A stretch of DNA of 63,179 nucleotides, filler included, from Sphacelaria rigidula (lineage: Eukaryota), in assembly GCA_964200075.2 (NCBI GenBank). It is 7 parts of 7 records of this genome, joined end to end, with 100 filler letters (N's around TTAATTAATTAA, not from the genome) between each part and the next. Parts side by side here need not be neighbours in the genome. Positions count along the whole stretch, not along the records: positions 36,163 to 45,101 come from CAXNAA020009696.1; 6 more parts are not named here. The stretch is one strand, 5' to 3'. This document shows positions 8,942 through 54,240 of this stretch, one piece after another. The notes below the pieces were generated by a model that ran no database searches, was not told where the DNA came from, and saw only the letters and a program-made list of their open reading frames with translations. A program made the translations under genes and the position numbers. Position 1 is the first letter of the stretch. Every line of letters starts with the position of its first letter.

Positions 8942-9041
8942 NNNNNNNNNNNNNNNNNNNNNNNNNNNNNNNNNNNNNNNNNNNNTTAATTAATTAANNN
9001 NNNNNNNNNNNNNNNNNNNNNNNNNNNNNNNNNNNNNNNNN
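8942..9041. other. artificial contig spacer N44-TTAATTAATTAA-N44
   Basis: Identical 100-nt spacers also occur at 17983-18082, 27023-27122, 36063-36162, 45102-45201 and 54141-54240. The 12-mer places stops in all six frames. Confidence 0.98.
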
Positions 9042-17982: not shown

Positions 17983-19802
17983 NNNNNNNNNNNNNNNNNN
18001 NNNNNNNNNNNNNNNNNNNNNNNNNNTTAATTAATTAANNNNNNNNNNNNNNNNNNNNNNNNNNNNNNNNNNNNNNNNNNNNACAAATTTGGACAATCTT
18101 TGAGAAACTGAGAAATTACGGATTCTGCATACTTCTGACGCTGACTACTGTACCTTCGTCAGTTCAAGTTGTTGGTTTCCTGCAATTGGGGAACTGGACG
18201 CCAGAGCGTTCCTTCTGGTTCCATGTGTCAGTCATATGTCCGTACGAGTGTTCCTGAGCAGCTTCCGGTATTGATGCCGACGTTGTTCCCGAGTGCCATT
18301 GCACACCGCGAGGTGCCTTACGCCTCCGGAGACGTAATGTGGACAGCTTTTGTCCATCAAAAAAGCAACCTCACTCCCGCCATTCGGGGTAACAAATATT
18401 TGCCTTCGCGTTCACAGCCTGCCGCTATTTCCTCCGCGAACACCTACGGGTCTGGCGAACGGGACTCGAGTTCATTTTGTGCTGCATGCACCCCCGCCTC
18501 TGTCGCCGGTTCAGTAATGAGTGTTAGTAGTAACAAAGACCCATTCAGCGCAAGTTTTGACGGATGGCCGTACTCTGGAGAGACATGGGACGATGTTTAC
18601 TTGGCTTCTACGACAGCTTTTATCACGGATGACCCCCATTTGTGGAACCAGCTTCTGTCTTCTTCGGCTAAACGCGACGCTTTCACTGCCACGCCAACAG
18701 CCGTATCAATCGCAATGTAAAAGGCCACAGCATGCGTGACTGTGACAACTCATGCATCAACGCATTCGATCTCATGAACCCTGTACAACAGGACAATGAA
18801 CCCGCGTGGCGCCGATGGCAAAAACGAATGCGCGGCCATCGTACCCCAGGTCGAAATAATCTCAACCCTTCGAACACTCGAGGCAACTATCGCTAATCGC
18901 AATCGCCGACAAAACAACAACGATAGTTCTGGCACTCGCCAAAGAGATAATACCTCTCGCGCCAATCATGGTTCCGCTTACAGACACCAGCGGACGCAAC
19001 CGACACAAAGCTGGAACCCCAACACCAGAGACCCTGGTACCTTCACTTCAGCTCGCATAGCTCCATGACGTGGCAACGCCGGCGTTAAAATGTCCTCAGC
19101 GCCGCCGATAGCACTTTCGAAGACTTTTTCAACACCGCCCGCGGAACGAGCGACGAAAACGAATCGCTCAGTCTCCTCGGCGTTATGCAGGAGCACTAAT
19201 TACGGCCGCTCAAATCGACCCCCGTCTTCACCTCTTCACCGCAGAGTAACAGCTGCGTGAACTCACTATTTAGCTCTACGCTCGGCTCTGGACTTGGTCC
19301 TTCAGAACTGAGTGTAAATCTGAGGTGTGGGAACACCAGCTGCCCATCCCTGAGACAAAGGCTTCGCTCAGCGACCGCACACACCGGCAGTAGTGTATCT
19401 CACTCGACTGGTTCAAGTGTCGCTGGTCTCAACTTGACCATTCCGGGTCAAGTAACACCCACCCAGCTCGAACGAGTTCGTTCTTCTCGTTCGTTACACC
19501 ACGCGAAACTACCCCTGAACGGTTCCAAGAAAAACTGTTGTAATTTACAATCGGCTATGACTCCTCAGCCAAGCTTGCCAACGGAAAGTCCACAAGCTTC
19601 GCCCGATTATACCCCGATGCTGACCTCATCCACCCGACTGGACGCACTTGTGATGCCCCAACAAGTTTTGGAAGTTCCCCGACCATCGTCACGGCGAAAG
19701 AGGGAGCCCCGTAGGGATAACCCCAAGAAAAAGTGCGCATCATCACGCTCACCTCTCTCCAGCGGAAAACCTCGACCTTGATTTCTCCAAAATTCGGCGA
19801 CT

Positions 19803-26950: not shown

Positions 26951-28204
26951 CTGATAACAACAAATTGTGCGAATTGAGGTTTAACTTCGAGATGAGGTTC
27001 AAGCCGAAAAACAGTGCTTTCCNNNNNNNNNNNNNNNNNNNNNNNNNNNNNNNNNNNNNNNNNNNNTTAATTAATTAANNNNNNNNNNNNNNNNNNNNNN
27101 NNNNNNNNNNNNNNNNNNNNNNCAGCCTACAATGAGTTGCTTTGTTTTCTGGTATCGCCACTTCCTGAGACAGCCACAGCGTATACACTGCCTCATGGGT
27201 GCCTCACCATCCATCGGGGGTGGGGGACTCCGCGTCCTCAAATCTTGTCCGCGGAGCCCCCTGGGCATGGTGGCAATTTCAGATTATAATACCGTAGAAG
27301 GAAAATATCTTCCATATGGAGGATAAACCTCAAGTGTGGGCTGGCGATCGCATGCGCGACTTCGTTGTTCGGGTTGTTCATGGATCAAAATAAATTGTAC
27401 AGATAACGCTCATCATTATCCCTCGAATATCTTCGAGGAGAACATCGCATAAACAAGAGAGAATATAACTGCACAGAACTAATCGTTATCGGTCTAAAGT
27501 CATCAATGCGAAGGCCTCGCTGATTCTGAACTGATCCCGTGCGAAATCAATGCGTGATGGCACAAAAGACACCACGGCTCGACTGCTGCCGAGATAGCCC
27601 CCCTCCGAACCGGCCAAAAAAGTGCACGGAGGCGATGATCATAGATAGATGCCGTTAGAGCTGGTTCTGTGCTGCACGACGCGACTCATTTGGGCGTTAC
27701 AGCTGATTTCGGACTGCTACACGCCTCTCATGTGGGCGAAATTGCTGCAAACGAGCCCAATAGTGGGATTTCAGCCGGTCGTTTGGACGGTCTCCGTTGC
27801 ACATTTTGTGGGGGGGCTGTGTCGGCATTAGTCGCTCAGGGCATAACAGCTGGAATGATGCGCTGGAGAAGACCCAGACCACCACAATCCAAGGAAACGT
27901 TTTATGCACCCAAGGGGTTGCAAATAAGCGATGCACCCGGGGGCACTTCCGCGGTACCCCAGGCCCACGTCTTGTGGGCCCAATTTCGATCCAAATCAGG
28001 GAAAAAAAACACAGTCCGACTGGAACTTCGGTGGAGACGCCGAATCCGAGAGGCCTCTCGCGGGATTAACCCTCAACTCACTTGGAAAATCACCATTTTG
28101 CGTTCGAGATAACCAACTCGGGGTATTTATGACGGGCCATTCAAAAGGCAATCCGGACATCGCATCTACGCTGTCCAGTTAATGGATGTGAGAAGAGCTT
28201 GCGA

Positions 28205-35940: not shown

Positions 35941-36636
35941 TTTAAAAATCCGGGTCGGTAGAAATTCGGAGCAGTATTTCTCAGGCCACTCACCGGCCCA
36001 TGTTTGGTTTTCGTGTAAACAGCCAATCATCTATGTTGAGGATGGTGCTTTTGATTGAGGATNNNNNNNNNNNNNNNNNNNNNNNNNNNNNNNNNNNNNN
36101 NNNNNNTTAATTAATTAANNNNNNNNNNNNNNNNNNNNNNNNNNNNNNNNNNNNNNNNNNNNGTGTGGGGAAAGCACTGTTTTGGGCTTGAGCCTCATCT
36201 CGAAGTTAAACCTCAGTTCGCACAATTTGTTGTTCAGATCATGGACTAGAGCTATATATTTGACGCCTACTTTGAGTGAATGATATTTTAAACAAGGCTT
36301 TTTCGTTGGCCACTGCAGCGGTACCGTACTGCAGTCAGAAGCAGCTTGTGAATCTGAAAGTTGCGTCCCAGCGGCGAAAAACGTTCTGCGCATTTTGTAG
36401 GCGACGGGGTTCCACAAAGCACGCGACCAAAACACGGGCCGTGTCAACACTCTTGGAGACACAATGCATGTATGCTCCGAGCCGCATGACCCAGCCCCAA
36501 GCCCCAGGATCAACAACTGATAGCGTCAGCGTCAACCCTGACCTGAGACAAGCAACGTACATATCCTTCTTCCGTACGTATTCAGCTGTTTCCATGAACG
36601 CCCCAGATAGGTTAGAATACCCTTTGCCGCACTCGC

Positions 36637-36780
36637 CTCATTGATCATCTGTGAAACGATCAGCGGGGACCACCTCGGTGCCGGAGTGAATATTCTCTTC
36701 GCCTTCAGCAAACCCAGCGTGGCGAAAAGATTCACGGCATTCACCATGCAGGCCATTGTCAGCACGACTACGTAAATGAC
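36637..36780 (-). CDS. channel gene exon (TM10); ends at a putative GC donor or reads on to the stop at 36532
   Basis: VIYVVVLTMACMVNAVNLFATLGLLKAKRIFTPAPRWSPLIVSQMINE|gcgagt. Confidence 0.8.
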
Positions 36781-39700
36781 CTGTCGGGAGTTTTGAACGT
36801 CTCGCACAAAAGTGTACAAGGCAACGATGTACAACCGCGCAGTTGTTGAGGGAGGCAGTGATTAGGGCGTTTGGTGGCGGCATGGCAACATGAAAGACGT
36901 GATCGTGGACGTGATCAACACCGCAGATTGCCTAGTTGTGACACACATACGCAAACGTGCGCCCCTGTGGCAACATTACTGACCTTCAGGCACAGTAATG
37001 CACGAGTGGGCCCTACTCATACAAGACGGGCCCCTAACCCTGTTTTTCAACGATTTTGGTTGTTATTGTGTCGCACCTTGATGGTTTCGTGACCGGACAA
37101 GTTGTAGGCGACAACCGACGCGGCTGCCAAAGCGTCGAGGGGAAACGCGAATCCCCAGTTAGACATGTTGAACCCTCCCTCCAGGAAGAAATCCAGCGGC
37201 CACGCGAGGACCCCCAAGGCTACGGCCATCGATACAGCCGGGTCTGACGGGCGGTGAAACATACAGCACGTGCCATCACCGGGGGATAATGAATTTGAAT
37301 ATGAACAGACTGCCGACTGCGAGCTGGCGATACAACAATTTCGGGCTTTGTATCTATATGCGACCCGACACGCGGGGTTCACTGTCATTGACGTTTCAAC
37401 ACAACTGCTGGCGGGATCGCAGAAACACTGTCGCCTTCCTCTACATATTCATGTGCAATCATGGTGTATCTCCCGGTGCGACGATACATTTACCTGCATA
37501 CCCAGCACCAAATAATGAAACGAAAACAATCACATCATCACGCTCACGAGGTCCCAGCGACCTCCCTGATTACTCACAGTATAATACCCGCTGCAACGAA
37601 TCGAAGCTTGACACACTCTCCAGGTTGTGGTAGGCCATCATCGCCATAGCTGGCGGCGCCACCCAGATGGCGAAGAGACTTCGAGTTCGGACGTCGCTGT
37701 GGTGGTCCGAGATGGCCTGAGGGTTAAGACGGAAAACACAATACCGTGATTGACAGAAAACACTCCTACTAACACTACAGCCCACTTGATGTAGGCTCGC
37801 GAGGGGAAGGCACCGCGTAGCGAAGGCTGGTCCGTCGCCGGGAGGTCGTTTCGGACTCACTCTGTTGCTGACAGACTAGTCTACCCCTTACACAGGTCGG
37901 CTGACTTCGACATGTCGCCGCGGGATTGATGGCACCGGCAAGATCTTTGGAGCTATCGCTGAAACCATTTGTGTACAGAACCATATGAAAGTGGCAATTT
38001 CATGCCCGTTTCGCATCGGCCATCAGTAAGAAAACATTGATAGTTTGCTATGGTGTATTTTGTTCACACACACGAAGCCATGGAACGTGAATTTCGTTGC
38101 TCATGGAATTTAGTGGGGTAGGAGGTGTCTTTGGGATGGAGAAGGAGGCACGTACTCCGGGAGGTTCATTGAAGCACAATGCTCATAATATTTATTGTGG
38201 TCATTACAAGCACTGCCGCAGTTCTCGTGATACCCACTCCCTTGCGACCACGGCCTCGCATTATCCTGCAACCTCCATATGAGTATCTACTTGAGATATT
38301 AGATCCCAGATGAGTATAGTATCCTAGATGGACGCTGAAATATATTATAGGGCTCCACCCGTAGCCGACCCTCGAAACACTGTATTCTTCCAGGGATGAA
38401 ATTTTTTCGGTGTTTCGGACTCTGCATTCCGACTTCTCCCAGAACGAAGCGACTTGATTTTTCCTCCTAAGCTTCATTTTTGGATAAGTCAGAAAAATTC
38501 GGACTGCAATGCAGTAGTTCGGAGAGCTGCGCCATGAAAACGCCGTGGTGCTTGCAAGCACTCGAGAATCATCAGGCACCTCGGCAATTTCGGAGATCTC
38601 TGAAAAGCGATGTCGATAATAATGGGCCTCAGGTGATTTAACCCGAACCTGAAATTATGTTCCAAGTTCTGGACAGAGAAGGGGCTCCTGATATCTCCCA
38701 CCGCACGTTTGACTCAATGCCAGTAGCCTTTTTCAAGCAGAATACTGTAGGGGTTGTGCATTGCTCGAGTCGATCTCGTTTGCGTTTATTATTTCATCTT
38801 GACCACGGGGGCATGGGTCGACACCACAGCAGGGAACACTCGATCGTCGTCGTTACTACCGCCCCACCTTGCTGAAGGTGATCGGCCAGAGAGCCAGCCA
38901 GATGATCGTGCCGATGCCAAAGAGGTACCAACCCCACTCGTAGTAGTCCGGGTCGACCGAACTGGCGGTGGCGGCCCCCATCAAGTTCGAGACAGGCACC
39001 ATCATCCAGCTGGGCTGAATATACTCCGAATCTACGGGCGAAGCAACCCAGCTGTCGAGAATTCGAAAATCCGAGGGACGACGGAATTGTAGTGAGAGTG
39101 CAGACGTTGAACCCAGCCATTCAAGACAGTACTGCCACACATTGTGAGGATGCTGTGCACTGTGCTGGAAGATACACGTTTCCCTGTGGGGGGTAGACTG
39201 CAGTACGTGTTTTCTTGTAACCAATAGCAATTGATATGTAGTTGACATGTTGATTCTCAAATTCAGAACCTTGATTCATGCACAACGTCTCCGGAGTATC
39301 AATAAACGGCGTGCGGGTCCAATTCACGGGCAACGATGGCTACTGATTTGATCGTGAACGGGCATCAAGGAAAGGGCATTCTCCTTCGCTTAGCCAAGGC
39401 GAGAGAATATACTCTCGCCGTGAAATAGTGGTGTGTTGGATGTAATGGTTACTTCGATTCGTCCTGTAGCATGCTGAGATATATACACTGCGCCGCATTC
39501 GCAGCCCCCGCAGCAGCAAGCTAACTAACCAGTTTAACGCATGACAGCGGGGAACATTTTGGGCCAAAATACATTTGACGATACATGAGCAGCATCCAAA
39601 CCGGTGCAACGAAGATCAGGTCCACATCTACCCCTATTTCGGCTGCCGGTATTTGGGTAACTAAACTCGCGCCAAGGGCGACCCAACTATGGCAAATGGG

Positions 39701-42700
39701 AGAATTCAGACCGCCACCATGGCTATAGATACCGCGATATCCACAACCTCGGAATGAATTATGCTTCCCTGGCGTTTAGAACCCGTAACAATAGCAACCC
39801 CCAAGCCCGCAAACAATTCTCGAAAAGATATTTCGCGGAAGTCATTTCTTCAGAGCTTGCCTGGCAATCGTGTACCAGGTCAGCATCGTCAGGGGAATGG
39901 TTCCAATCCAGTAGAGCACCCTGCAGAAAGTGGTGGTGCTGGCGGGGTCGGTCCCGTTGGCAGTAACCCGTGCTAGGACGACGAAGATCAGGAACGGCAG
40001 CGCGAAAGTGCCACGGTGGAGCGGGTGATGAAACTCCTTCCAAACCTGCAAGGGAGTGCACGTATTTACGGTGTTCACGCGAGCGGGGTTGGCGAAGTCA
40101 TGAAATTCGTTTTCACTACCCCGATTTTCGTCAATTACCGCATACCCACATGCGGTGGGTCAGAAGCAGATCGGCAGGATACAAGCAGATTCTCACGCCG
40201 GTGTTGAGAGTTGCGCTTTCAAATTTGATGTGGAAAATCGGCGGGGCATCGAGTAAGATCCGGCTTCCATTCACTATAACGTCCCCAACTGTTGAAAAAC
40301 AAGGAAATCTCAACGTCCCACACCCTCCAAGAAATTCTGCCTACCCAATTTAGAAGTGCAACTCTCAAAATTGGAGTAAACCTCCTGTTCATATGACGTA
40401 GGCTTGTCAGAAAACGGAGCTGTGATTCGTAGCTCATTCAGCAGCTCCGTTTGGACACATATGCCTCAAACATTTGTGTGGAGATCCGCATGGGCACAAT
40501 AAGAAAAAAAAGATCTGTGGGACATTGTTTTTTCCATGAGCTAGAGACGTTTAAAATTATATCGTGGTAATGACCATATTTTCATGAGAGCGTTCCTAAC
40601 TCACGAGAGAGAATGCCCGGGATTATATTGTTCGCAGTATGCCCTTTCAATTCTCCATACTTGAATGCAAAGCATTATTTGAAGACCTGAGCAGAGAAAC
40701 TGAGTCAGGGGCCAAAAGCAAAAAATATATATCCGAAAAACAAATGTGTGCCCTCGCGACACTCCGTACCAACTTTTAAAGCACAATCCTCTCAATTGAG
40801 ACGTGAATCGAGATTAAGTCCATTTAATGCCTCTGCTCCTAACCCTAACTTTTTTTTATTCGCACCTTGAACCCCTCTCTTCCTCGGGATGAGTCCATGG
40901 TCTCAAGGGATCAACTCATCTCTCCCCCGGTACGCGCCTTACATTTTGGTCTCGCGGATTGCGTCAGATTTCAAACTAGAGAACTTTCCAACAATGATGG
41001 TTTGTGGTTGTGCAGTGTTGAATGAAAAAGTAGTGTGGGATGATCGATGGGAGGTGCATGTTCAGGTCATAAGGTTGTGCTTGCATTGTATATATATCCA
41101 TACCTCCTCAAGGCATATATCCTAACCCCGGGCAGGGGTATGGGAGGCTTACAGAGCTCAGAGAACTGTCGGGTACCGGTACTAGAAGAAAGTATCACGG
41201 AAATCACAGAACTTGCCGGGTACGGTACGGGAAGCATACAGAAAAACCGTACCGGCAATCGGGTATTTCTTCAAGGGCATACACGCGCTCCGAATACGGG
41301 TAAATACCCAAGAAATGTAAGGGTATGAGAATCGTATAAAATTCACAAAACTGTCGGGTACGGTAAATACCCAAGAAAATACCCCGGGTATAAAAACCTC
41401 CGTACCCTACAGAACACCACGTTGCACCTTTGTGTTTCGTGATACAGCTTGACAATGACCTTGGAGAGATCTGACACGCAGCTCTAACATCACTCGAGCT
41501 GCGAATGGGGCCCGATGCCGATGCATGGTGTCCGGCGTAATTTAGGTTCACCTTGGAAGGGTAGAGGATGCACTTGGCCACGAGCAAGATTACGAGGATA
41601 CTCTGCAGAACCGCCCCAGAGTAGGCCAGCGTCTGAAACCACGAGAAAAACAGGGAGAGGCGACGACGTAAGTGCAACATGATGGGAGGGCTGCGGCAGG
41701 GCTTGCGAAAGGTTGTCGTGCTTTGGGGTAGAACCATCACTCAGGACTGCAAAACGAGAACTCAAACGGGGTAGAACATGACAAAGCAACGAGTCGGGAA
41801 AGAAGGAATTCCATGCAAGAAGGGGGTGTAAAGAGAGTGGGCAAGCTGCCCGAGCCGAACCAAGTGCTCTAGAACAGACGGGAAAGTACCGCGACCGCAG
41901 ATTGCCCAAGAGGGCGTCAGAGCTATGAGTATCAAACGGGCAGCAGAAGCAAACCCTGTAGACTATGAACCCCACGAAATATGAGAGGTATTCGGACATG
42001 ACCGTTATTCCAGTTCCAACTCTGTAGACGGCAAAGTCGCATTTATCTTCCGTCGTTTGTTCAGCAGATGTCTTCCTGATGTTTGTTTAGGCTTACGAGA
42101 AAAATGCAACTGTCATTGGTTGATTGATTGTTTTGGTTCATCGTCGCACTATACTGACCCCTCAGGGATCCAGCCGTGGTCACATGACAGGCGTACCCGA
42201 GAAAACACAAAGCTGAAGCACTCTCTGAAAAAAGAGAAGAAACAGAACAATATTTCCAACAAATCTTCAGAAAAAGCCTGAAATACGCGCACCTTCCACA
42301 CTACTTCGGTGGTACCCTCGATGGTCGAGAGAATCTTCCAGGGGAGACTGAGTCCAGTCACGGAGAGGGGAACCATGAAGTAGGCCATGTGGAGATCTGC
42401 CTCAACGGCAAGCCAACAGCGCAACACGGCGGTGAGTCAAGAATCGACAGTACTGTGAACGGGGGGCTTGATGAGAAGGGTAACACAGGGAGCGCATGCT
42501 GCATTGCTTCTACTTGTGCTGCGGTCACCTCGGATGAAACAACATCTGCACTGGTTGATGTGCTTTGATTTTGCTGACTAGAAGCAGCGGCCGTATGTGC
42601 ACGCTTCAGGATCGCTGTGGGACAATCAAGGGCGCCGAGTCAGGCATGCCGGTGGTCAGAAATGACGACTGCCCCTACTAGCCGCTGGCTGGTGTAGTTT

Positions 42701-44767
42701 TTCAAATTGCACCGATTTTAGTATCCGACCTTACGGGCGATGAATTGTTGTATTCCACGTTGTGCAAGGAGAGGTACGCTAGCGGGCACTGTTACACAGC
42801 AGGTTGCGGTATTGGAACGAGTGCCTGGTGGGTAGTTTGCCCTTGGAACACGTATGTGCAAACGACCAAGCAATAAATATTACAAGCTGAATGTCAACAA
42901 CGTCTTCTACTACTCCCTCAACAACTCGCGCCCGCCTTGATCAAACTGAGACACTCACACTTGATGGGGTGGAAACGCTCCCACTTGTCGTCGGCTTTCC
43001 CGCGCTTGGCCCTGAGGTCGGTCGGATTCCGCGGTACGCCCTGCGTTGCCCCCGATCAAGCACAACACCAGTTGGCGGGGTACAAACCACACGATGAGAC
43101 AGAGATGCAAGGTTTAGCTTCAAAAGATGATGGCGACGCATCCCTCATTTCCGGAACGTCGCCTGGTACACGAAAACTGAGTAAGGACTTGAAATGGTAA
43201 TGTTATGTTTTCTCTATTTATAAGGACTCCACATGTGAAGAGCCACGAAGTGGATTTCATGAGGGTGGTGCAGAATATTGCGTGCTACAGAGTGTCTCCT
43301 TGTCCCCACGAAATAAATGTCATCAAAACGGCAGTATGGTTTGGGAGAAAGGTACCATGTCGACGGGTACTCCGAGGGGGCGCTAAAGTTTGTCAGTTTA
43401 TGGACCGGTAAGACGCGGGTTTTCAATTTCGGCGTTTCGATGGCGGGATATCGTTCTTGTTGGCGGCGGCAATGGCTCCATGTTAACTGCTGTTGGCGAC
43501 AAGAACGGCTTCATCAACCTTGTCCCCAAACGCGATGGATACAGGGATATAGAGCACTGGACTGGAACACTTCAGCATGGAACACGCCTTACGTGGAGGG
43601 AATGTGGTACTGAGCAAAATGACGCGGTTGCACATTAGAGTACAACCTCCATCTGAAATGTAGACATTTATCTGGGATGTTATTTTGGAATGTCGGGTTC
43701 ATCTGGGAGTTTCACCACCTTGGATATTCATACAATATGGATATTCATCTAGGGTATGAATATTCGTCTCGAATGTCCAAGAAGGATAGGCACATTTTTG
43801 AGGGATATACCATCCCAGAGGAATCTCCCAGATGAACATGCCAGATGAATAATCCACAACCCACATCGCCGATGAACGTCCGTTTGCGTTATCACATCGT
43901 AGATGGACAAATATATGGAGTGTTTCACCCCCCAGGCGGAGGTTGCGCGATAATGCAACGCTTCCACAGGAACTGACGGGCGCGAAAACGAAATAGTTTA
44001 ACCCTAACAAACTTGAGCTTCCAAGTTTCCCCGAAGCCGGAGATTCATAGGTGGGAACGATCCACTGAAGACACATCAGCGAATACGCTGGGTTGCGCTC
44101 AAGTCCTGTTCCGAGAATGATTCTTGCCTGGGAGGAATAAGAGCGTTTCTCACCTTGGTAGGGTAGGTGACGGCTTCCGACTCAGCCCCCTTTCCGGTGC
44201 GAACGTTGACTTTCTCCCAGGCGTACATGGTATTGCTCCTGTGCGGTAGAGCACACCACAATTGACCGTCAGCCGTAGGCATCTTCGAGTGACGTGCTTT
44301 TCTCAACCAAACCAACAGCTCACATATCCATCAGGAGTTGTACGACGAGGAAGGTGTCGTACACCCGCGATATTTTCATGTCTAACGGACTACATTTTTA
44401 TATTCACTCTTCGTACGTCAGTACGTTTTGTGTAAGGTTTGAGCGTTGAGTGCATCCATCAGCCCCCAAGACATGCGTCAAGTACCCTCCTCCATTCTCT
44501 CGTACGCACGGCGTGGAGTTTCGCTAGAAGGGGTGGGTGCTCCTGACCGCCTCTACTCTGAGCTACAAAATGTTGCAGCATGCTGTTAATAACACACCCG
44601 ATGACGACCATCCTAGGAGTGAAACGAAGTCGCGATCACCTTGTGCCGATGTGCATGCGGTACACCGAGCCGCTGACGAGTCCCCACTGTAGCAGGTACT
44701 TGAAGATGAAGCACCCCAGGCAGAAGTTGATAAACCCTTGGAGGGCCGTAGCCACCGCCAGTCCGAG
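36637..44767 (-). CDS. SLAC1/TehA (TDT family) anion channel with extra N-terminal CxxC membrane segment; partial gene, 10 exons
   Basis: Exons in transcript order: 44640-44767, 44154-44238, 42959-43040, 42293-42396, 41552-41632, 39861-40045, 38868-39051, 37578-37716, 37077-37243, 36637-36780. All nine junctions are phase-compatible and give one open frame containing YFMVPLSVTGLSLPWK, VWKEFHHP, PSWMMVPVSNL, IWVAPP and WGFAFP. Confidence 0.9.
37077..37243 (-). CDS. channel gene exon (TM8-9, gate Phe motif WGFAFP)
   Basis: PAVSMAVALGVLAWPLDFFLEGGFNMSNWGFAFPLDALAAASVVAY...HETIK|gtgcga. Confidence 0.88.
37578..37716 (-). CDS. channel gene exon (TM7)
   Basis: AISDHHSDVRTRSLFAIWVAPPAMAMMAY...LQRVLY-T|gtgagt. 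Confidence 0.85.
38868..39051 (-). CDS. channel gene exon (TM5-6)
   Basis: WVASPVDSEYIQPSWMMVPVSNLMGA...WYLFGIGTIIWLALWPITFSK|gtgggg. Confidence 0.88.
39861..40045 (-). CDS. channel gene exon (TM3-4), GC donor
   Basis: VWKEFHHPLHRGTFALPFLIFVVLA...LTWYTIA-AG|gcaagc. Confidence 0.85.
41552..41632 (-). CDS. channel gene exon (TM2)
   Basis: TLAYSGAVLQSILVILLVAKCILYPSK|gtgaac. Confidence 0.85.
42293..42396 (-). CDS. channel gene exon (TM1)
   Basis: LHMAYFMVPLSVTGLSLPWKILSTIEGTTEVVWK|gtgcgc. Confidence 0.85.
42959..43040 (-). CDS. channel gene exon (linker)
   Basis: cag|GVPRNPTDLRAKRGKADDKWERFHPIK-T|gtgagt; phase 0 to 1. Confidence 0.72.
44154..44238 (-). CDS. channel gene exon (linker)
   Basis: cag|G-SNTMYAWEKVNVRTGKGAESEAVTYPTK|gtgaga; phase 2 to 0. 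Confidence 0.7.
44640..44767 (-). CDS. channel gene exon (DUF4395-like, FCLGC)
   Basis: cag|LGLAVATALQGFINFCLGCFIFKYLLQWGLVSGSVYRMHIGT-AG|gtgatc; ends in phase 2. Confidence 0.75.
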
Positions 44768-47700
44768 CTGATTGTAAAACAATGCATGAACATGATGTTG
44801 CAGGAGTGAAGATGTGAAGAGGGAGGGGGATCGGACGAAACGAGGAGGCTTGTTGAACCACCCATTGTGCGTTGCCTTCGTCACTCTCTGTAGGAAGGAT
44901 GTCGACTGGAAAACGCTCAATCTACTTGTTGGATCATGGCCCCTCGGTGGAGAAAGGGCGAGGAATAGGTTGCAACCACTACGCACAGAAGGATTAGAAG
45001 CACGAGTAAAGCCGTAACAGCCCCCCCCCCCCCCCCCGTCCACAAAGAAGTAGCAGAATCAACACAAAACCGGAAACCCTCGGCTTTACGATCGCATGGC
45101 CNNNNNNNNNNNNNNNNNNNNNNNNNNNNNNNNNNNNNNNNNNNNTTAATTAATTAANNNNNNNNNNNNNNNNNNNNNNNNNNNNNNNNNNNNNNNNNNN
45201 NCAAGAATACCGAGACCCTCGAAAAAGACGGACGGGACCGGGGCCCAGCCCCGGGTCCCGTGCGGCTTGTATAGTATACGATATATCGACAGCGCGCGGT
45301 GTGCGTGGATTCACAGTCATACCGATACTTACTGCGTAGTCCGTGTTCGGCAAATTTGACGCAACATGCCATGGTTTTTCTTGACTCGACATGTGGTCAC
45401 CTACCAGCGGACTAATTCACCGCTAGCGAGCGACGTTCGCGCTGAAACGTGTTCGGGGAGCAACCTCGTGTCCAACACATGCCAGTACGAACTCAGTCCT
45501 CGGTGTCGACGTGCAAAATACAACGTGCGGCGGGAGTACTTTTCAAGTAAAACACACACCAGCATGCATCACGACCCGAAAATTTGCTGCGTCCTACACA
45601 CGCGTATCTATATATAGTGACAACGTACTGGCCCGTGTAGGGTGTGAAGCGCTTGCGGTAGCATTTGAATCGAACACTGCGGTACGCTTCCGCGGAAAGG
45701 CCGCCGTCGCGGACATTTTCCACGCGCAACGATACGGCACTCCACTGTTGTGTACTGCACTGCGTGATCTCTCATGAGACGCACGCATGGTAAATAAGTG
45801 AGTGGATTGCGACCCCGGTAGGCTTCTACCTATTATGCTAGTACGGGTTCTGCAAACATCGTTCAAGGGTCGGACGAATAAGCGATTCGTCTACAAATTA
45901 CTTGATTCCAGTGTGATTGATTCGCACTGTAGGAATCAATCCTTTGGCGTTGTTTTCAGCATTGCAGCCCAGGTATGCGCAGCTCAGGGACGTGGAATGG
46001 CGAAAGCATTGCGTGGAGAAAGTTTTGACCAGCGGTCAACTTTTGTCTCTCGAGCAATCACGCCTGAAAAATCGTACTTGTAGTGACTCGAGCCGGCGAT
46101 GATTCGTCCGAACCGTGAAATTGTTCATCTCGAAAATAATGATGGATCACATGCACACAGAACCCGTACTAGCATCGTACCTAGAAGCCTAGACCCCGGC
46201 AGCCGTGGCGTGTGCTACCTCGTGAGAGCGGAATTAGAACAGAAACGAGGAGTAGAAATGGCGCATGTACCGTTCAATAAAAATGCATAGGACTACACAC
46301 AGCACCAACCAAGATAGATGATGGCGCACACAACGTTTAATAGCATCAAGGCTGCTCAGCTTACCGCACCAAAACAAAACACACTCGTTTGCCACCACAC
46401 GAATACCACTCCTTGTACTGTACGGTTACCAAGCTGGACCAAACTCCGTAGGAAAAACATGCAAGTCGGTTTCCCCGACAGCGGGTAAAGACAACTGTGG
46501 TCAACCAGCTCTGAACCAAGAGCCCCACCACGTCGGTAGGTTCCTTCGCGCATTCTTCTCTTCGGCAGCGATAGCATTTTCTATGTGAAGACCCGCGATC
46601 AGATGTGAAAAGCAAACGAAAGAGAAACGAAGAAAGATGAAGCCTTTCTTCTGATTCAAAACGATTCCTCCGAGAAGCGTACAGGTGTTCCTCACATGAT
46701 CTTTCTCCAGAAGCTTCTCATACGATCTTTCGAACAGAGAACATTCCGAGATATGATTTTTTTCCGGAGATGTTAATGCTCGTGGGAACAAGGAATAGTG
46801 GGAACGACCTTCATCCAGCATGTAGCAATCAGTTGCTCAGCCAGTACACACGAGTACACACGTGAAGCACGGCTTCACACGGTGGAGTAGAAAGTGTACG
46901 ATTTACGATGCAGTAGCATACCATGCGGTACATGCAGTGCAGCCGCAGAGATGGAGTACAGTACATTACAGCACACAGCTGTACACAACGGGCAGTACCG
47001 CTACCGTTGTTTCGTACCGAGTGAACCATGACAAGTACCACGGCGGGCAGACGTATTCGTCTTGGTGCGGACCGCGTCGAACGTTTTTGAGGGCGCGAAG
47101 AAATTGTTTGGGCACTGTTCTCCTCGGGAAAACGGCATCACCCGACTTTCTTGCAGAGTTCGCATCATACAACGTGGACTTAACTAACAAGTATTCAGGA
47201 AGGCATATGATGATTACGCCCAGGAATCGAACCGCAGTTTGAGGTGCCATGCTTGGCTTTGAGCCACACGAAAAACAATTCCCGCGGCTTTTCCATGGTG
47301 CTTTTTTCACATGGCACACGTGGCTAACAAAATATGCGGTTCATTGGTATGTGTGATTCACGGTACGGTGATACGTGATTCGCGGTACGGTAATACGTGA
47401 TTCGCGTCGTCTGTGCTGCGATACGGCACGGCACGGTACCCGAGAGTCACGTGATTTTGATTGCAATCAAAATCCATGCTCTTTCGTTTTCGCGGTACGG
47501 TGCGGTGCTGGGTTTGCACATTTTGCCGAGATCGCGGACATTTGAATATACCTCATTCCGACGCGGAAAAACTCGAGAACGGAAGAGAGCCCCCGCCTGG
47601 TTTGTTTTCTCTCGCTGAATGTGTGAGCTCTAGCCTCCCTCCACGCATCGATCAAATACGTCCGAAATACCTTTTTCTTGACCGTGAAACGCGCTGTTCG

Positions 47701-52995: not shown

Positions 52996-54240
52996 TGAGC
53001 GAGTCTTGATTGCACAGACTTGACTGTTGCAAATTTCATCGAGGCACCTTTGGAGGTTGGAGGCATCACACGCAGCAACCAGATCTCCGAATCACTTCAA
53101 ACACCCTCAAGAGGGTTCGGGTTCATTGCTACTTTCTTCGTTGTCTTCGCTCGTGCGTGCCGACGCCGTCCGTAGCTGAGGTCGAGGGGGTGTTACGTGA
53201 TCGAGCTATCACGCGATTGAACTGAACTCATCTCATTTCACACCCCGCTGCGTGAACACCTCGGTACAGTAGCTTCGCAGGATTAATTCCGATGTGAGGA
53301 GGTCATGCATTACAAGCCGGGGCGAGATATGACCCCACGAGGAACAAGAGTGCTCTACAATCAATGACTTGTCGTTGTATTTGACACCCACGCTATCAAC
53401 CGCCGACCGCAAAGGTCTTTTGGCTGACACTTTGTACGATAGCCCCCTCCCAAAACCAGCTAAAAGTGTCACGAAAAAATGGCCACACAGCGCCTGATAT
53501 TCGGGTTCAGGCTGCATGAAGCGCCTCATGTTGGCGACAGTGGCTAGAACGAACCCATGCGTGGGAATTCCCAGCTTCTCGTTGTGCTCGGCTTTTCCCA
53601 TTTCGATTTACGTGAAGCGTTAGCCTCCCAAAACCATGCACTTTTTGAGGGGAGGGTAATCGTAGAAAGGGTCGGCTGTCAAGCAACGCTGGCGGCAGTG
53701 CGGCAGGCAAATCCGATCATAGCTAGCTTTCGTTGCTCTAATATACTGACTGCCGTCTGCAGAGAGGTCACCCACCGTAACAACATGTAATAGATAGCCT
53801 CATGCACCGGGTGCGTTGTCGGGGGAAGTTGTAGGCCTGTCGTGGCCAGTTGAGACCAGATATCTTTTATATAATTAGTGTACCCATATTTGCCTACTCT
53901 CATATATCACACATATGCTGAAACCACCACCGAATTAGATCCGACACATAATGCCGCACACCAACTCACGAACACATACCTAAACCACTGAATGAAGTGG
54001 GGTACTAATACCTGGGAAAAACGCTCATACAAAATGACATGTCATAATCCCAGATTTTCGGCACGCAAAAAGGCGTGTGCCGCCCCAGCAGATATGCACT
54101 GCAACCACTACATAGGGTATACCTTAAATAACAGAATGATNNNNNNNNNNNNNNNNNNNNNNNNNNNNNNNNNNNNNNNNNNNNTTAATTAATTAANNNN
54201 NNNNNNNNNNNNNNNNNNNNNNNNNNNNNNNNNNNNNNNN

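What the first reader, a model, noticed from the sequence alone, without database searches (positions are those of the whole stretch)
36637..44767. SLAC1/TDT anion channel fused to an N-terminal CxxC membrane module: candidate thiol/redox-regulated channel
Seen: ten exons splice into one frame. The 10-TM TDT core with the gate motif WGFAFP is preceded, through a ~60-aa polar linker, by a hydrophobic segment ALQGFINFCLGCFIF carrying CxxC. Known: SLAC1 (plants), TehA (bacteria) and Mae1/Ssu1 (fungi) lack such a module, and plant SLAC1 is gated by phosphorylation of a soluble N-terminus. Inference: the segment resembles the FCLGC end of DUF4395 (recalled, not searched), so the channel may respond to thiols, metals or sulfur species instead of kinases. 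The gene start is missing from this contig.
Basis: partly seen in the sequence, partly recalled or inferred. Interest (0 to 1): 0.72.

Follow-up and report, generated by a model that had tools for sequence, protein, structure and literature searches.

The report
Anion channel fused to thiol-redox modules
This is a real piece of a brown-alga gene in which a SLAC1/TehA-type anion channel is joined to a small membrane module with two conserved cysteines, part of a widespread but unstudied family that looks built to couple anion flow to the cell's redox state.

Summary
Ten exons on the minus strand (44767-36637) splice into 433 codons without a stop. They align without gaps, at 82% identity, to two Sphacelaria rigidula proteins. 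RNA-type contigs show several of the junctions, which a DNA run lacks.

The CxxC segment is the last helix of a genuine DUF4395 domain (PF14340). This holds weakly for the window exon alone and firmly in the orthologs. Both gene ends lie outside this 8.9-kb chunk.

Full-length relatives carry glutaredoxin, DUF4395, a conserved linker, a TDT/SLAC1 core and a hemerythrin-like domain. The family occurs in brown, red and green algae, ichthyosporeans and a kinetoplastid record. Both cysteines are kept in 92 of 99 representatives.

In sampled Actinomycetota, DUF4395 genes often sit beside or are fused to a thioredoxin gene. The Grx/Trx plus DUF4395 pairing is therefore old.

Best reading: a thiol-redox-controlled anion channel. 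No function has been tested. The window's own clade has lost the hemerythrin metal ligands.

The parts
44640..44767 (-). Exon 1 of the fragment. It encodes the end of DUF4395 helix 4 with the CxxC (FCLGC, codons 44722-44711) and the start of the linker.
   Evidence: Pfam DUF4395 positions 106-128 of 130, E 0.003. 95% and 90% identical to P0001 and P0002. AG acceptor and GT donor. RNA-type contigs cover 44643-44766. On the upstream side they continue into sequence that translates ..YTIAAQVFL, as in P0002. On the downstream side they continue into the start of exon 2 (tables 7-8, my hand reading).
44154..44238 (-). Exon 2: polar linker.
   Evidence: tblastn to P0002 gives 86% identity. In frame with AG/GT sites. 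A 17-nt loose end of an RNA-type contig at the exon 1 donor matches its start, with 2 synonymous differences.
42959..43040 (-). Exon 3: polar linker, holding a motif that is invariant in 12 of 12 brown-algal proteins (G.P.N.TDL).
   Evidence: tblastn to P0002 gives 93% identity. Invariant columns of A1. A joint 42959 to 42391, from a near-identical copy, stands in RNA-type run X7 and not in DNA run X3.
42293..42396 (-). Exon 4: first TM helix of the TDT/SLAC1 core.
   Evidence: tblastn. Frame continuity requires the acceptor at 42396.
41552..41632 (-). Exon 5: TDT core, TM2.
39861..40045 (-). Exon 6: TDT core, TM3-TM4. GC donor.
   Evidence: Only the GC donor at 39861 gives ..TWYTIAS|WVASP.., matching P0001 ..TWFAIASWVASP...
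38868..39051 (-). Exon 7: TDT core, TM5-TM6.
   Evidence: Pfam SLAC1 PF03595, E 1.1e-6, 28.5 bits against a cut-off of 27.9 for this exon alone. A joint 38867 to 37715 stands in RNA-type runs X2 and X7 and not in DNA run X3.
37578..37716 (-). Exon 8: TDT core, TM7.
   Evidence: RNA-type contigs (records 10 and 24) cover it with 0 mismatches, spliced to exons 9 and 10 (table 8).
37077..37243 (-). Exon 9: TDT core, TM8-TM9, with WGFAFP (37157-37140). The Phe before Pro is at 37145-37143.
   Evidence: Pfam SLAC1 E 0.0021. In ortholog P0004 this motif aligns to SLAH3 'WWAYTFPMT'. This Phe is kept in 89 of 90 family representatives. A joint 37075 to 36778 stands in RNA-type runs X2 and X7.
36637..36780 (-). 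Exon 10: TM10 and the start of the C-terminal cytosolic region. GC donor; the gene continues off the chunk.
   Evidence: P0002 reads ..MIHE|AFREAV.. at this point. RNA-type contigs map up to 36634 and carry about 385 further nt that do not lie on this chunk (records 1, 10, 24). No match to the ortholog C-terminus anywhere else in the window.

Best explanation
Shown: the region is an internal fragment (433 codons, 10 exons) of a brown-algal gene. The gene belongs to a eukaryote-wide family of multi-module membrane proteins with this order of parts: glutaredoxin, DUF4395 (four TM helices ending in a CxxC), a conserved linker of about 75 aa, a 10-TM TDT/SLAC1/TehA-type anion-channel core, and a hemerythrin-like domain with a conserved tail.

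Inferred mechanism: the TDT core conducts an anion and keeps the pore Phe of SLAC1/TehA. DUF4395 has an even number of helices, and TDT termini are cytosolic (recalled for TehA and SLAC1). The Grx, the CxxC, the linker and the hemerythrin-like domain should therefore all face the cytosol. The CxxC sits at the cytosolic end of DUF4395 helix 4, where the fused Grx (thioredoxin in bacteria) can oxidise or reduce it. The dithiol/disulfide state of this membrane module, passed on through the conserved linker, would set channel activity. In most family members the di-iron hemerythrin domain would add an iron, O2 or oxidant input. In the window's own clade the hemerythrin ligands are lost, which leaves the thiol module as the main sensor.

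My odds: about 0.95 for the identity of the gene and its fusion, about 0.5 for the mechanism.
For: Gene and fusion:
- A gapless alignment at 82% identity to P0001 and P0002.
- Pfam on P0001 gives DUF4395 at residues 28-156 (8.8e-17) and SLAC1 at 231-538 (3.7e-35).
- Pfam on P0004 gives Grx 32-95, DUF4395 166-293, SLAC1 367-670 and Hemerythrin 703-829.
- Splice joints stand in RNA-type contigs and not in the DNA run.

Spread of the family:
- The profile search found 172 representatives at E<=1e-30.
- 52 stored proteins carry both DUF4395 and TDT at >85% coverage. 20 of these also have Grx and Hr.
- Named members come from Porphyridium, Tetrabaena, Myrmecia, a pedinophyte, Ectocarpus, Creolimax, Pirum and Papus.

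Cysteines and pore:
- The first Cys of the CxxC (C283 of P0004) is the only invariant column in the 52-sequence full-length alignment.
- Both Cys are kept in 92 of 99 representatives.
- The first Cys of the Grx active site is kept in 59 of 61. The motif is CPFC in 29 of 61.
- The pore Phe is kept in 89 of 90.
- The TDT core aligns to SLAH3 9m7r (1.6e-13), SLAC1 7en0 and TehA 3m72.

DUF4395 model:
- pLDDT 93, pTM 0.85. It has four long helices, and the CxxC lies at the break between helix 4 and a short C-terminal helix.

Bacterial pairing:
- Among 87 neighbour ORFs of 23 parsed actinobacterial DUF4395 loci, thioredoxin was the commonest family, with 6 members.
- In 4 loci the thioredoxin gene abuts DUF4395 downstream on the same strand. 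One locus, possibly two, shows a DUF4395-thioredoxin-like fusion.

Hemerythrin:
- The H..HxxxE..H..HxxxE positions are kept in 73-81 of 86 representatives.
- The C-terminal model (pLDDT 89.7) resembles the FBXL5 and Rv2633c-type hemerythrin domains with weak Foldseek E-values.

Expression:
- Ectocarpus Esi0050_0061 is up-regulated specifically by copper stress (PMC4108028, passage in section 9 read).
Against: - No transport or redox measurement exists for any member.
- The window itself holds only 23 of 130 DUF4395 positions, and no Grx or Hr. Whether this particular gene has a Grx is unknown. P0001 is partial at its N-terminus, and P0003 starts inside the Grx without the CPFC.
- Neighbours of a second bacterial DUF4395 clade showed no thioredoxin among the 55 immediately upstream ORFs scanned. 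They were MFS 10, RNase_T 9, RecQ-type 7 and MarR 2. The downstream neighbours of that clade were not scanned.
- The side of the membrane on which the CxxC lies is inferred, not shown.
- The DUF4395 fold found no solved relative. Foldseek gave a best E of 1.1, and VIA-align gave only generic four-helix bundles with Z<=9.3.
- A CxxC can also bind metal.
Confidence: 0.5

Rival explanations
1. Substrate handling rather than gating. The Grx-DUF4395 pair acts on the transported species itself. For example, it could reduce or relay a sulfur or metalloid oxyanion or persulfide (sulfite, thiosulfate, selenite, tellurite) that the TDT core then moves, as a fused processing and export unit.
For: - TDT relatives include TehA (tellurite resistance) and the fungal sulfite pump Ssu1 (recalled).
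- Besides thioredoxin, neighbours of actinobacterial DUF4395 include rhodanese (2), ThiS-type sulfur carriers (2) and ArsR-type regulators (HTH_20 4, HTH_5 2) among 87 ORFs.
- Earlier scan notes list DUF4395 next to rhodanese/DUF1416, CysO/CysM, MetM/MetO and persulfide modules (these are leads, and I re-tested them only partly).
- A small hydrophobic 159-aa protein heads the cysteine-starvation operon with the sulfurtransferase cysA2 in M. smegmatis (bioRxiv 10.1101/834739, passages read). I did not verify that this protein is a DUF4395.
Against: - Rhodanese and ThiS are each seen only twice in 87 neighbour ORFs.
- No SLAC1/TDT family appeared among the families listed for bacterial neighbours. 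One search listed all 12 families. One search listed only the first 25 of 65.
- The hemerythrin module and the conserved linker fit a sensor better than an enzyme.
Confidence: 0.25
2. Metal sensing. The membrane CxxC binds Cu(I), Zn or Cd, possibly together with the Grx cysteines. The protein would then be a metal-responsive anion or organic-acid efflux channel used in metal tolerance.
For: The Ectocarpus member is induced by copper and not by H2O2. [quoted passage not shown] CxxC is a common Cu(I) or Zn ligand set (general knowledge).
Against: - The partnership with thioredoxin-fold oxidoreductases in bacteria and with CPFC glutaredoxin in eukaryotes points to thiol-disulfide chemistry.
- Copper stress also perturbs thiol redox, so the induction does not discriminate between the readings.
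- The paper's Additional file 3, which holds the expression values, could not be opened.
Confidence: 0.12
3. Annotation artefact. A DUF4395 gene and a neighbouring TDT gene are wrongly merged, and the in-frame exons between them are chance.
For: The exon 2 to exon 3 junction was not among the joints listed. The runs used are only guessed to be RNA.
Against: - The linker exons are 86-93% identical in protein to P0002. They hold residues invariant in 12 of 12 brown-algal proteins.
- The same order of modules recurs in 52 representatives from distant eukaryotes, including transcriptome-derived records.
- Junctions from the upstream exon to E1, E1 to E2 and E3 to E4 are seen in RNA-type contigs and not in the DNA run.
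Confidence: 0.03

Closest known systems
Plant S-type anion channels SLAC1, SLAH1 and SLAH3 (PDB 7en0, 9m7r, 9m7s)
   Same: Same Pfam family, PF03595. The ortholog P0004 core aligns at E 1.6e-13 to 1.3e-11. The Phe-Pro motif of the ninth helix is kept.
   Different: Plant channels are controlled through soluble N- and C-termini by kinases (recalled). Here the N-terminus is Grx plus a 4-TM DUF4395 with a CxxC, and the C-terminus is hemerythrin-like.
Bacterial TehA (PDB 3m71, 3m72)
   Same: The 10-TM TDT core. E 6.6e-11 to P0004 residues 370-682.
   Different: TehA is the core alone, 314 aa, with no extra modules.
Ectocarpus siliculosus Esi0050_0061, annotated 'Glutaredoxin/malate transporter fusion protein' (P0010)
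   Same: Same family. 46% identity to the window product. Pfam finds Grx, SLAC1 and Hemerythrin. It is copper-induced.
   Different: It belongs to the brown-algal clade that keeps the hemerythrin ligands. The window groups with P0001, P0002 and P0003, which have lost 3-4 of 5. The deposited Ectocarpus model lacks the second half of DUF4395, and the annotation names neither DUF4395 nor hemerythrin.
Bacterial stand-alone DUF4395 proteins (PF14340), often with a thioredoxin gene or domain
   Same: Shared motifs FP..V(D/N)...R, PGPPK(Q/R)FA and LE...FC.GC. The CxxC is kept in 33 of 34 aligned sequences. A thiol oxidoreductase is the partner.
   Different: They are about 140-190 aa and not joined to a TDT channel in the loci sampled. 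The partner is thioredoxin rather than glutaredoxin.
Hemerythrin-like sensor domains (FBXL5, PDB 3v5x and 3u9j; Rv2633c-type, 6q09)
   Same: The fold of the family's C-terminal domain (probability 0.84-0.95, rmsd 4.2-8.1, but weak E-values). Pfam PF01814 down to 7.9e-12.
   Different: Here the domain is attached to a channel and followed by a conserved tail of about 80 aa with no Pfam match. It is degenerate in the window's clade.

Membership tests
TDT / SLAC1 family (Pfam PF03595) | Match to the family profile above the curated cut-off | tested here: met
   Exon 7 alone scores 28.5 bits against a cut-off of 27.9. Exon 9 gives E 0.0021. Ortholog P0001 scores 122 bits over profile positions 2-331, and the window product is 82% identical to it across that span. 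The spliced window protein itself could not be passed to Pfam.
TDT / SLAC1 family (Pfam PF03595) | Ten TM helices | tested here: inconclusive
   A crude hydropathy scan found 10 segments in the P0004 core and fewer in P0001. The alignment to the TehA and SLAH3 structures covers the whole core. No dedicated TM predictor was run.
TDT / SLAC1 family (Pfam PF03595) | Pore-blocking Phe in the ninth helix (SLAC1 F450, TehA F262; residue numbers recalled) | tested here: met
   WGFAFP is at 37157-37140. The motif of P0004 aligns to SLAH3 ..YTFP... Phe is kept in 89 of 90 family representatives.
DUF4395 (Pfam PF14340) | Match to the family profile above the curated cut-off | tested here: inconclusive
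   The window holds only the last 23 of 130 positions and scores 18.3 bits against a cut-off of 24.5, E 0.003. Orthologs pass: P0001 62.1 bits over positions 1-128, P0004 74.7 bits. RNA-type contigs join exon 1 to an upstream exon that reads ..YTIAAQVFL, as in P0002.
DUF4395 (Pfam PF14340) | C-terminal C-x-(G/A)-C motif after helix 4 | tested here: met
   FCLGC is at 44722-44711. It is kept in 33 of 34 bacterial plus eukaryotic sequences (the exception is a truncated ORF) and in 92 of 99 fusion-family representatives.
Glutaredoxin (Pfam PF00462) as the N-terminal module | Grx domain with a CxxC/S active site | not testable with these tools
   The 5' part of the gene is outside the chunk, and no genome is held. 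It is present in P0004-P0008 and P0010. P0003, in the window's clade, has only the second half.
Hemerythrin HHE domain (Pfam PF01814) as the C-terminal module | H..HxxxE..H..HxxxE metal ligands | tested here: not met
   This was tested on the nearest relatives, not on the window, whose 3' end is missing. P0001 and P0002 keep 1 of the 5 scored ligand positions and P0003 keeps 2 of 5, against 73-81 of 86 across the family. Pfam on P0002 gives only E 0.18.

The most novel reading that the evidence does not exclude
Grx-DUF4395-TDT-hemerythrin proteins are a eukaryote-wide class of anion channels gated by thiol-disulfide exchange and by iron, O2 or oxidant sensing rather than by phosphorylation. 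DUF4395 would be a universal membrane-embedded client or relay of thioredoxin-fold proteins in bacteria and eukaryotes alike. This would give the first function for that domain and a direct link between cellular redox state and anion flux in algae.
Probability: 0.35. Interest if true: 0.8.

Novelty: new variant of a known kind. Interest (0 to 1): 0.6.

Why it matters
SLAC1/TehA-type channels are known as kinase-gated (plants) or as bare cores (bacteria). A version wired to a glutaredoxin, a membrane CxxC module and a hemerythrin would be a different control logic. It is present in many algae and protists, including brown seaweeds that face metal and oxidative stress.

It also gives a testable handle on DUF4395. 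I found that domain in 33 of 101 sampled Actinomycetota genomes (31 of 99 without the two unpublished ones) and in three model bacteria. The searched literature mentions it only in passing, in 2 papers.

Tried and rejected
- Complex prediction of the DUF4395 module against the TDT core (P0004 residues 150-300 against 355-690) gave no verdict. The score was 0.00, the controls were not run and my alignment was not used. This is no evidence either way.
- No listed sequencing run is on record as RNA. X1, X2 and X7 are guessed RNA. The E2-E3, E4-E5, E5-E6 and E6-E7 joints were not among those listed (one further joint was not shown).
- No whole genome is held for the window, so the missing exons could not be fetched. 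tblastn of P0001 and P0002 found no other part of the gene in the other six chunks.
- The search for homologous proteins with the DUF4395 part, limited to shorter proteins, returned only 10 fragments of the same algal genes and no stand-alone relatives.
- The search for related loci with the 12-sequence DUF4395 alignment failed because no stretch was conserved enough. I reached bacterial loci through a plasmid tblastn hit instead.
- Fold searches of the DUF4395 model found no specific relative. Foldseek gave a best E of 1.1. VIA-align gave generic four-helix bundles, Z 9.3 and below, within the range the tool calls common for helical models.
- The ESM Atlas look-up of the DUF4395 part returned only bacterial DUF4395 clusters at scores of 0.87-0.89, below the 0.9 lead threshold.
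- Paper searches found no paper describing the architecture: 'DUF4395' (2 passing mentions); hemerythrin + glutaredoxin + SLAC1 (0 papers); hemerythrin, tellurite resistance, dicarboxylate transporter and glutaredoxin (4 unrelated); hemerythrin + 'malic acid transport protein' (1 unrelated); Esi0050_0061 (1 paper).
- I considered reading exon 10 through to the in-frame stop at 36535. I rejected this in favour of the GC donor at 36637, because the orthologs and the RNA-type contigs continue elsewhere.
- I did not verify that M. smegmatis Ms5788 is a DUF4395.

Full report
WHAT IS IN THE SEQUENCE

The window is not one contig. It is seven chunks of about 8.94 kb, separated by N44-TTAATTAATTAA-N44 spacers. 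The finding lies in chunk 36163-45101, on the minus strand.

Stop-to-stop frames, splice-site enumeration and tblastn with two homologs give ten exons: 44767-44640, 44238-44154, 43040-42959, 42396-42293, 41632-41552, 40045-39861, 39051-38868, 37716-37578, 37243-37077 and 36780-36637. Spliced together they make 1299 nt, which is 433 codons with no stop. All acceptors are AG. Eight donors are GT and two are GC, after exons 6 and 10.

The product aligns over all 433 residues, without a gap, to residues 132-564 of P0001 and 51-483 of P0002. Both are Sphacelaria rigidula proteins, and the identity is 81.8%. The GC donor after exon 6 is needed to reproduce ..TW(Y/F).IAS|WVASP.. of the homologs. The FCLGC codons are at 44722-44711, and WGFAFP is at 37157-37140.

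RNA EVIDENCE

No listed run is on record as RNA. Three runs (X1, X2, X7) are guessed to be RNA and hold about 5-7% of the sampled words, which is roughly what exons alone would give. I laid them on the chunk beside a DNA run, X3. They show these joints:
- 36778 to 37075, the intron between exons 9 and 10, in X2 and X7.
- 37715 to 38867, the intron between exons 7 and 8, in X2 and X7.
- 42391 to 42959, between exons 3 and 4, in X7. Five letters differ at this joint, so the contig comes from a near-identical copy.

None of these joints stands in the DNA run.

Contigs of 833 nt and 695 nt cover exons 8, 9 and 10 with no mismatch. They carry about 385 further letters beyond 36634, so the transcript continues past exon 10.

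A contig over exon 1 differs at 5 of 124 letters, and the DNA run holds both variants. Its loose ends are informative by my hand reading. On the downstream side, 17 letters match the start of exon 2 with two synonymous changes. On the upstream side, the letters translate ..YTIAAQVFL, which is the preceding DUF4395 stretch of P0002.

The junctions E2-E3, E4-E5, E5-E6 and E6-E7 were not among those listed.

WHAT THE MODULES ARE

Pfam on single exons gives three matches:
- SLAC1 (PF03595) for exon 7, at 28.5 bits against a cut-off of 27.9.
- SLAC1 for exon 9, at E 0.0021.
- DUF4395 (PF14340) positions 106-128 of 130 for exon 1, at E 0.003 and 18.3 bits, below the 24.5 cut-off because only a tail is present.

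Exon 1 found two S. rigidula proteins, 95% and 90% identical, whose stored Pfam labels are PF03595 and PF14340. A Pfam run on P0001 gives a full DUF4395 at 28-156 (8.8e-17) and SLAC1 at 231-538 (3.7e-35). The 'CxxC module' is the last helix of a whole DUF4395 domain whose first three helices lie upstream of the chunk.

THE FULL ARCHITECTURE

A search with P0001 found 12 brown-algal proteins, from Sphacelaria, Ascophyllum, Scytosiphon, Ectocarpus, Laminaria and Hapterophycus plus EukProt and Logan records.

Pfam on six of them shows four modules: glutaredoxin, DUF4395, SLAC1 and hemerythrin. In P0004 they lie at 32-95, 166-293, 367-670 and 703-829.

The Ectocarpus siliculosus member (P0010) is named 'Glutaredoxin/malate transporter fusion protein' by its source. 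As Esi0050_0061, it was reported as specifically up-regulated by copper stress (PMC4108028, passage in section 9). I could not open that paper's additional file.

The linker of about 75 aa between DUF4395 and the channel is itself conserved. Columns invariant in 12 of 12 brown-algal proteins include W317, K326, T334, T337, G339, P341, N343, T345, D346, L347, F361, K365 and Y366 of P0004.

SPREAD

A profile of the 12 proteins, run against 1.84 billion representatives, gave 4709 hits at E<=1e-3, 915 at E<=1e-10 and 172 at E<=1e-30.

I parsed the 161 proteins then in store with HMMs built from each module of my alignment. 29 had the plain full order Grx-DUF4395-(linker)-TDT-Hr-tail. Most of the rest were sub-strings of that order, as expected for fragments.

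52 proteins hold both DUF4395 and TDT at more than 85% coverage. 20 of these also hold Grx and Hr.

I looked up 20 representatives. The named ones come from:
- Porphyridium purpureum (labelled 'SLAH3'), a red alga.
- Tetrabaena socialis ('Glutaredoxin-C6'), Myrmecia bisecta and a pedinophyte, all green algae.
- Ectocarpus fasciculatus, a brown alga.
- Creolimax fragrantissima and Pirum gemmata, both Ichthyosporea.
- A record 'Clim_evm1s74', which I read from memory as Corallochytrium.
- Papus ankaliazontas, a kinetoplastid by NCBI taxonomy. This is a transcriptome record, so prey contamination is possible.
- An MMETSP transcriptome.

The fusion is therefore old and widespread, not special to this gene.

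CONSERVATION OF THE KEY RESIDUES

Counts, unless another call is named:
- CxxC: of 99 representatives that include the end of DUF4395, 92 keep both cysteines, 2 keep only the first and 5 keep neither.
- In the 52-sequence full-length alignment, the first cysteine (C283 of P0004) is the only invariant column.
- Grx active site: the first Cys is kept in 59 of 61. The motif is CPFC in 29 of 61.
- Pore Phe: the Phe before Pro in the channel motif is kept in 89 of 90. In P0004 it aligns to SLAH3 ..YTFP... The equivalence to SLAC1 F450 and TehA F262 is recalled.

For the hemerythrin-like domain, the positions of an H..HxxxE..H..HxxxE pattern are kept in 73-81 of 86 representatives. The window's closest relatives have lost them: P0001 and P0002 keep 1 of 5, and P0003 keeps 2 of 5. 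The window gene belongs to this clade, with 82%, 82% and 70% identity to these three against 46-56% to the other brown-algal proteins.

DUF4395 ITSELF

An AlphaFold2 model of the P0004 domain was built from 34 eukaryotic and bacterial sequences. It is confident (pLDDT 93.0, pTM 0.85). It has four long helices (14-33, 37-56, 81-102, 106-126), a short helix between the second and third, and a final helix at 130-140. The CxxC (residues 129-132 of the model) lies at the break between helix 4 and that last helix.

Foldseek against the PDB found nothing, with a best E of 1.1. VIA-align found only generic four-helix bundles with Z 9.3 or less.

With an even helix count, and with cytosolic TDT termini (recalled for TehA and SLAC1), the Grx, CxxC, linker and hemerythrin-like domain should all be cytosolic. 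This is inference.

BACTERIAL CONTEXT

A plasmid tblastn hit from Tsukamurella is annotated DUF4395 and is 40.7% identical to the P0019 segment. It opened the way to prokaryote genomes.

PF14340 was found in 33 of 101 sampled Actinomycetota genomes. Two of those genomes are unpublished, and without them the count is 31 of 99. It was also found in the control genomes of Thermus thermophilus, Corynebacterium glutamicum and Lactococcus lactis.

I fetched 30 loci, none from the unpublished genomes. My ORF picker found the DUF4395 ORF in 23 of them. Of their 87 neighbour ORFs (two on each side), the families hit by most members were Thioredoxin 6, HTH_20 4, Response_reg 3, and Rhodanese, ThiS and ArsR-type HTH_5 at 2 each (65 families in all, with the first 25 shown).

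In four loci (L106, L108, L109, L114) the thioredoxin gene abuts DUF4395 downstream on the same strand. L094 is a DUF4395 followed by a thioredoxin-like stretch (E 8.9e-5). An ORF at the DUF4395 site of L098 has a thioredoxin match and no DUF4395 hit of its own.

A genome has only a handful of thioredoxin genes, so by rough reckoning six among 87 neighbours is far above chance. I ran no matched control.

Against a universal rule, I scanned the ORF immediately upstream in 55 parsed loci (of 80) from the clade closest to the Tsukamurella protein. None was a thioredoxin. They were MFS 10, RNase_T 9, RecQ-type domains 6-7 and MarR 2. That clade carries a second CxxC (..VCE[A/E]CN..) in a C-terminal tail. 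I did not scan its downstream neighbours.

Earlier notes of this scan link DUF4395 to rhodanese, CysO/CysM, MetM/MetO and persulfide genes. My sample agrees only weakly with these, with 2 rhodanese and 2 ThiS neighbours.

HOW IT MOST LIKELY WORKS

Shown:
- The channel core, the DUF4395 tail with its CxxC, and the conserved linker are encoded in one frame and, where visible, on one transcript.
- Relatives add a Grx and a hemerythrin-like domain.
- A thioredoxin-fold partner of DUF4395 recurs in bacteria.

Inferred:
- The fused Grx sets the dithiol/disulfide state of the membrane CxxC.
- This state is passed through the linker to the TDT core and changes anion conductance.
- The hemerythrin adds an iron, O2 or oxidant input in most members but not in the window's clade.

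I put about 0.5 on this reading. The rivals are direct handling of a sulfur or metalloid oxyanion (0.25), metal sensing by the CxxC (0.12) and a merged gene model (0.03). The transported anion is unknown.

COMPARISON AND NOVELTY

The core is a member of the TDT/SLAC1 family. The N-terminal module is a member of DUF4395. What differs from every characterised TDT protein (SLAC1/SLAH, TehA, and from memory Mae1 and Ssu1) is the set of attached modules.

The proteins are already in public databases under automatic or partial names, and the Ectocarpus one was noticed as a Grx-transporter fusion. My searches found no paper that describes the DUF4395 or hemerythrin parts, the family's spread, or any function.

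I therefore rate it a new variant of a known kind, with interest 0.6. The finding is real, coherent and testable. It rests on domain logic only, and it concerns a gene fragment whose own Grx and C-terminal parts could not be seen.

Noticed in passing
window 8942-9041, 17983-18082, 27023-27122, 36063-36162, 45102-45201, 54141-54240: The window is seven chunks of about 8.94 kb joined by N44-TTAATTAATTAA-N44 spacers. Neighbouring chunks need not be adjacent in the genome. tblastn with P0001 and P0002 found no other part of this gene in the other chunks.
   Followed up: partly
window 40633-41526, 42123-42420, 36163-36460: Stretches inside the introns and at the chunk's 3' edge have summed contig depths in DNA run X3 of about 11,800 to 347,000, against about 65 elsewhere. 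They also show many alternative joints. These look like high-copy repeats or mobile elements (tables 2 and 5).
   Followed up: no
window 44674-44714 (exon 1): A second, about 96% identical copy of exon 1 exists in the same organism's data. Five differences are fixed in the RNA-type contigs of X1 and X2, and both variants stand in DNA run X3. This is an allele or a recent paralog, and it is the copy whose junctions are seen at exons 1 and 2 (table 3).
   Followed up: partly
window 39861/39860 and 36637/36636: Two of the ten donor sites of this gene are GC rather than GT. The one at 36637 is supported by where the RNA-type contigs stop mapping. The one at 39861 rests only on the ortholog protein sequences.
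   Followed up: yes
window about 45023-45044, minus strand: A run of about 22 G (C on the + strand) lies upstream of exon 1, near the chunk edge.
   Followed up: no
L003, L013, L020, L038, L053, L061, L078, L093, L095, L099 (DUF4395 ORFs): One actinobacterial and acidobacterial DUF4395 clade has a second CxxC (..VCE[A/E]CN.., VCVAC in L099) in a tail about 17 residues after the family CxxC. In the set drawn from relatives of the Tsukamurella protein, none of the 55 upstream ORFs scanned was a thioredoxin. Possibly this clade carries its own redox partner.
   Followed up: no
P0001, P0002, P0003 against P0004-P0008 (alignment A1, columns 840-930): Brown algae have at least two paralogous clades of this protein. 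One keeps the hemerythrin His/Glu ligands. The other, which is the window's clade, has replaced 3-4 of 5.
   Followed up: yes
P0010 (Ectocarpus siliculosus), alignment A1 columns 313-392: The deposited Ectocarpus gene model skips the second half of DUF4395, including the CxxC. All other brown-algal models keep this part, so exons were probably missed.
   Followed up: no
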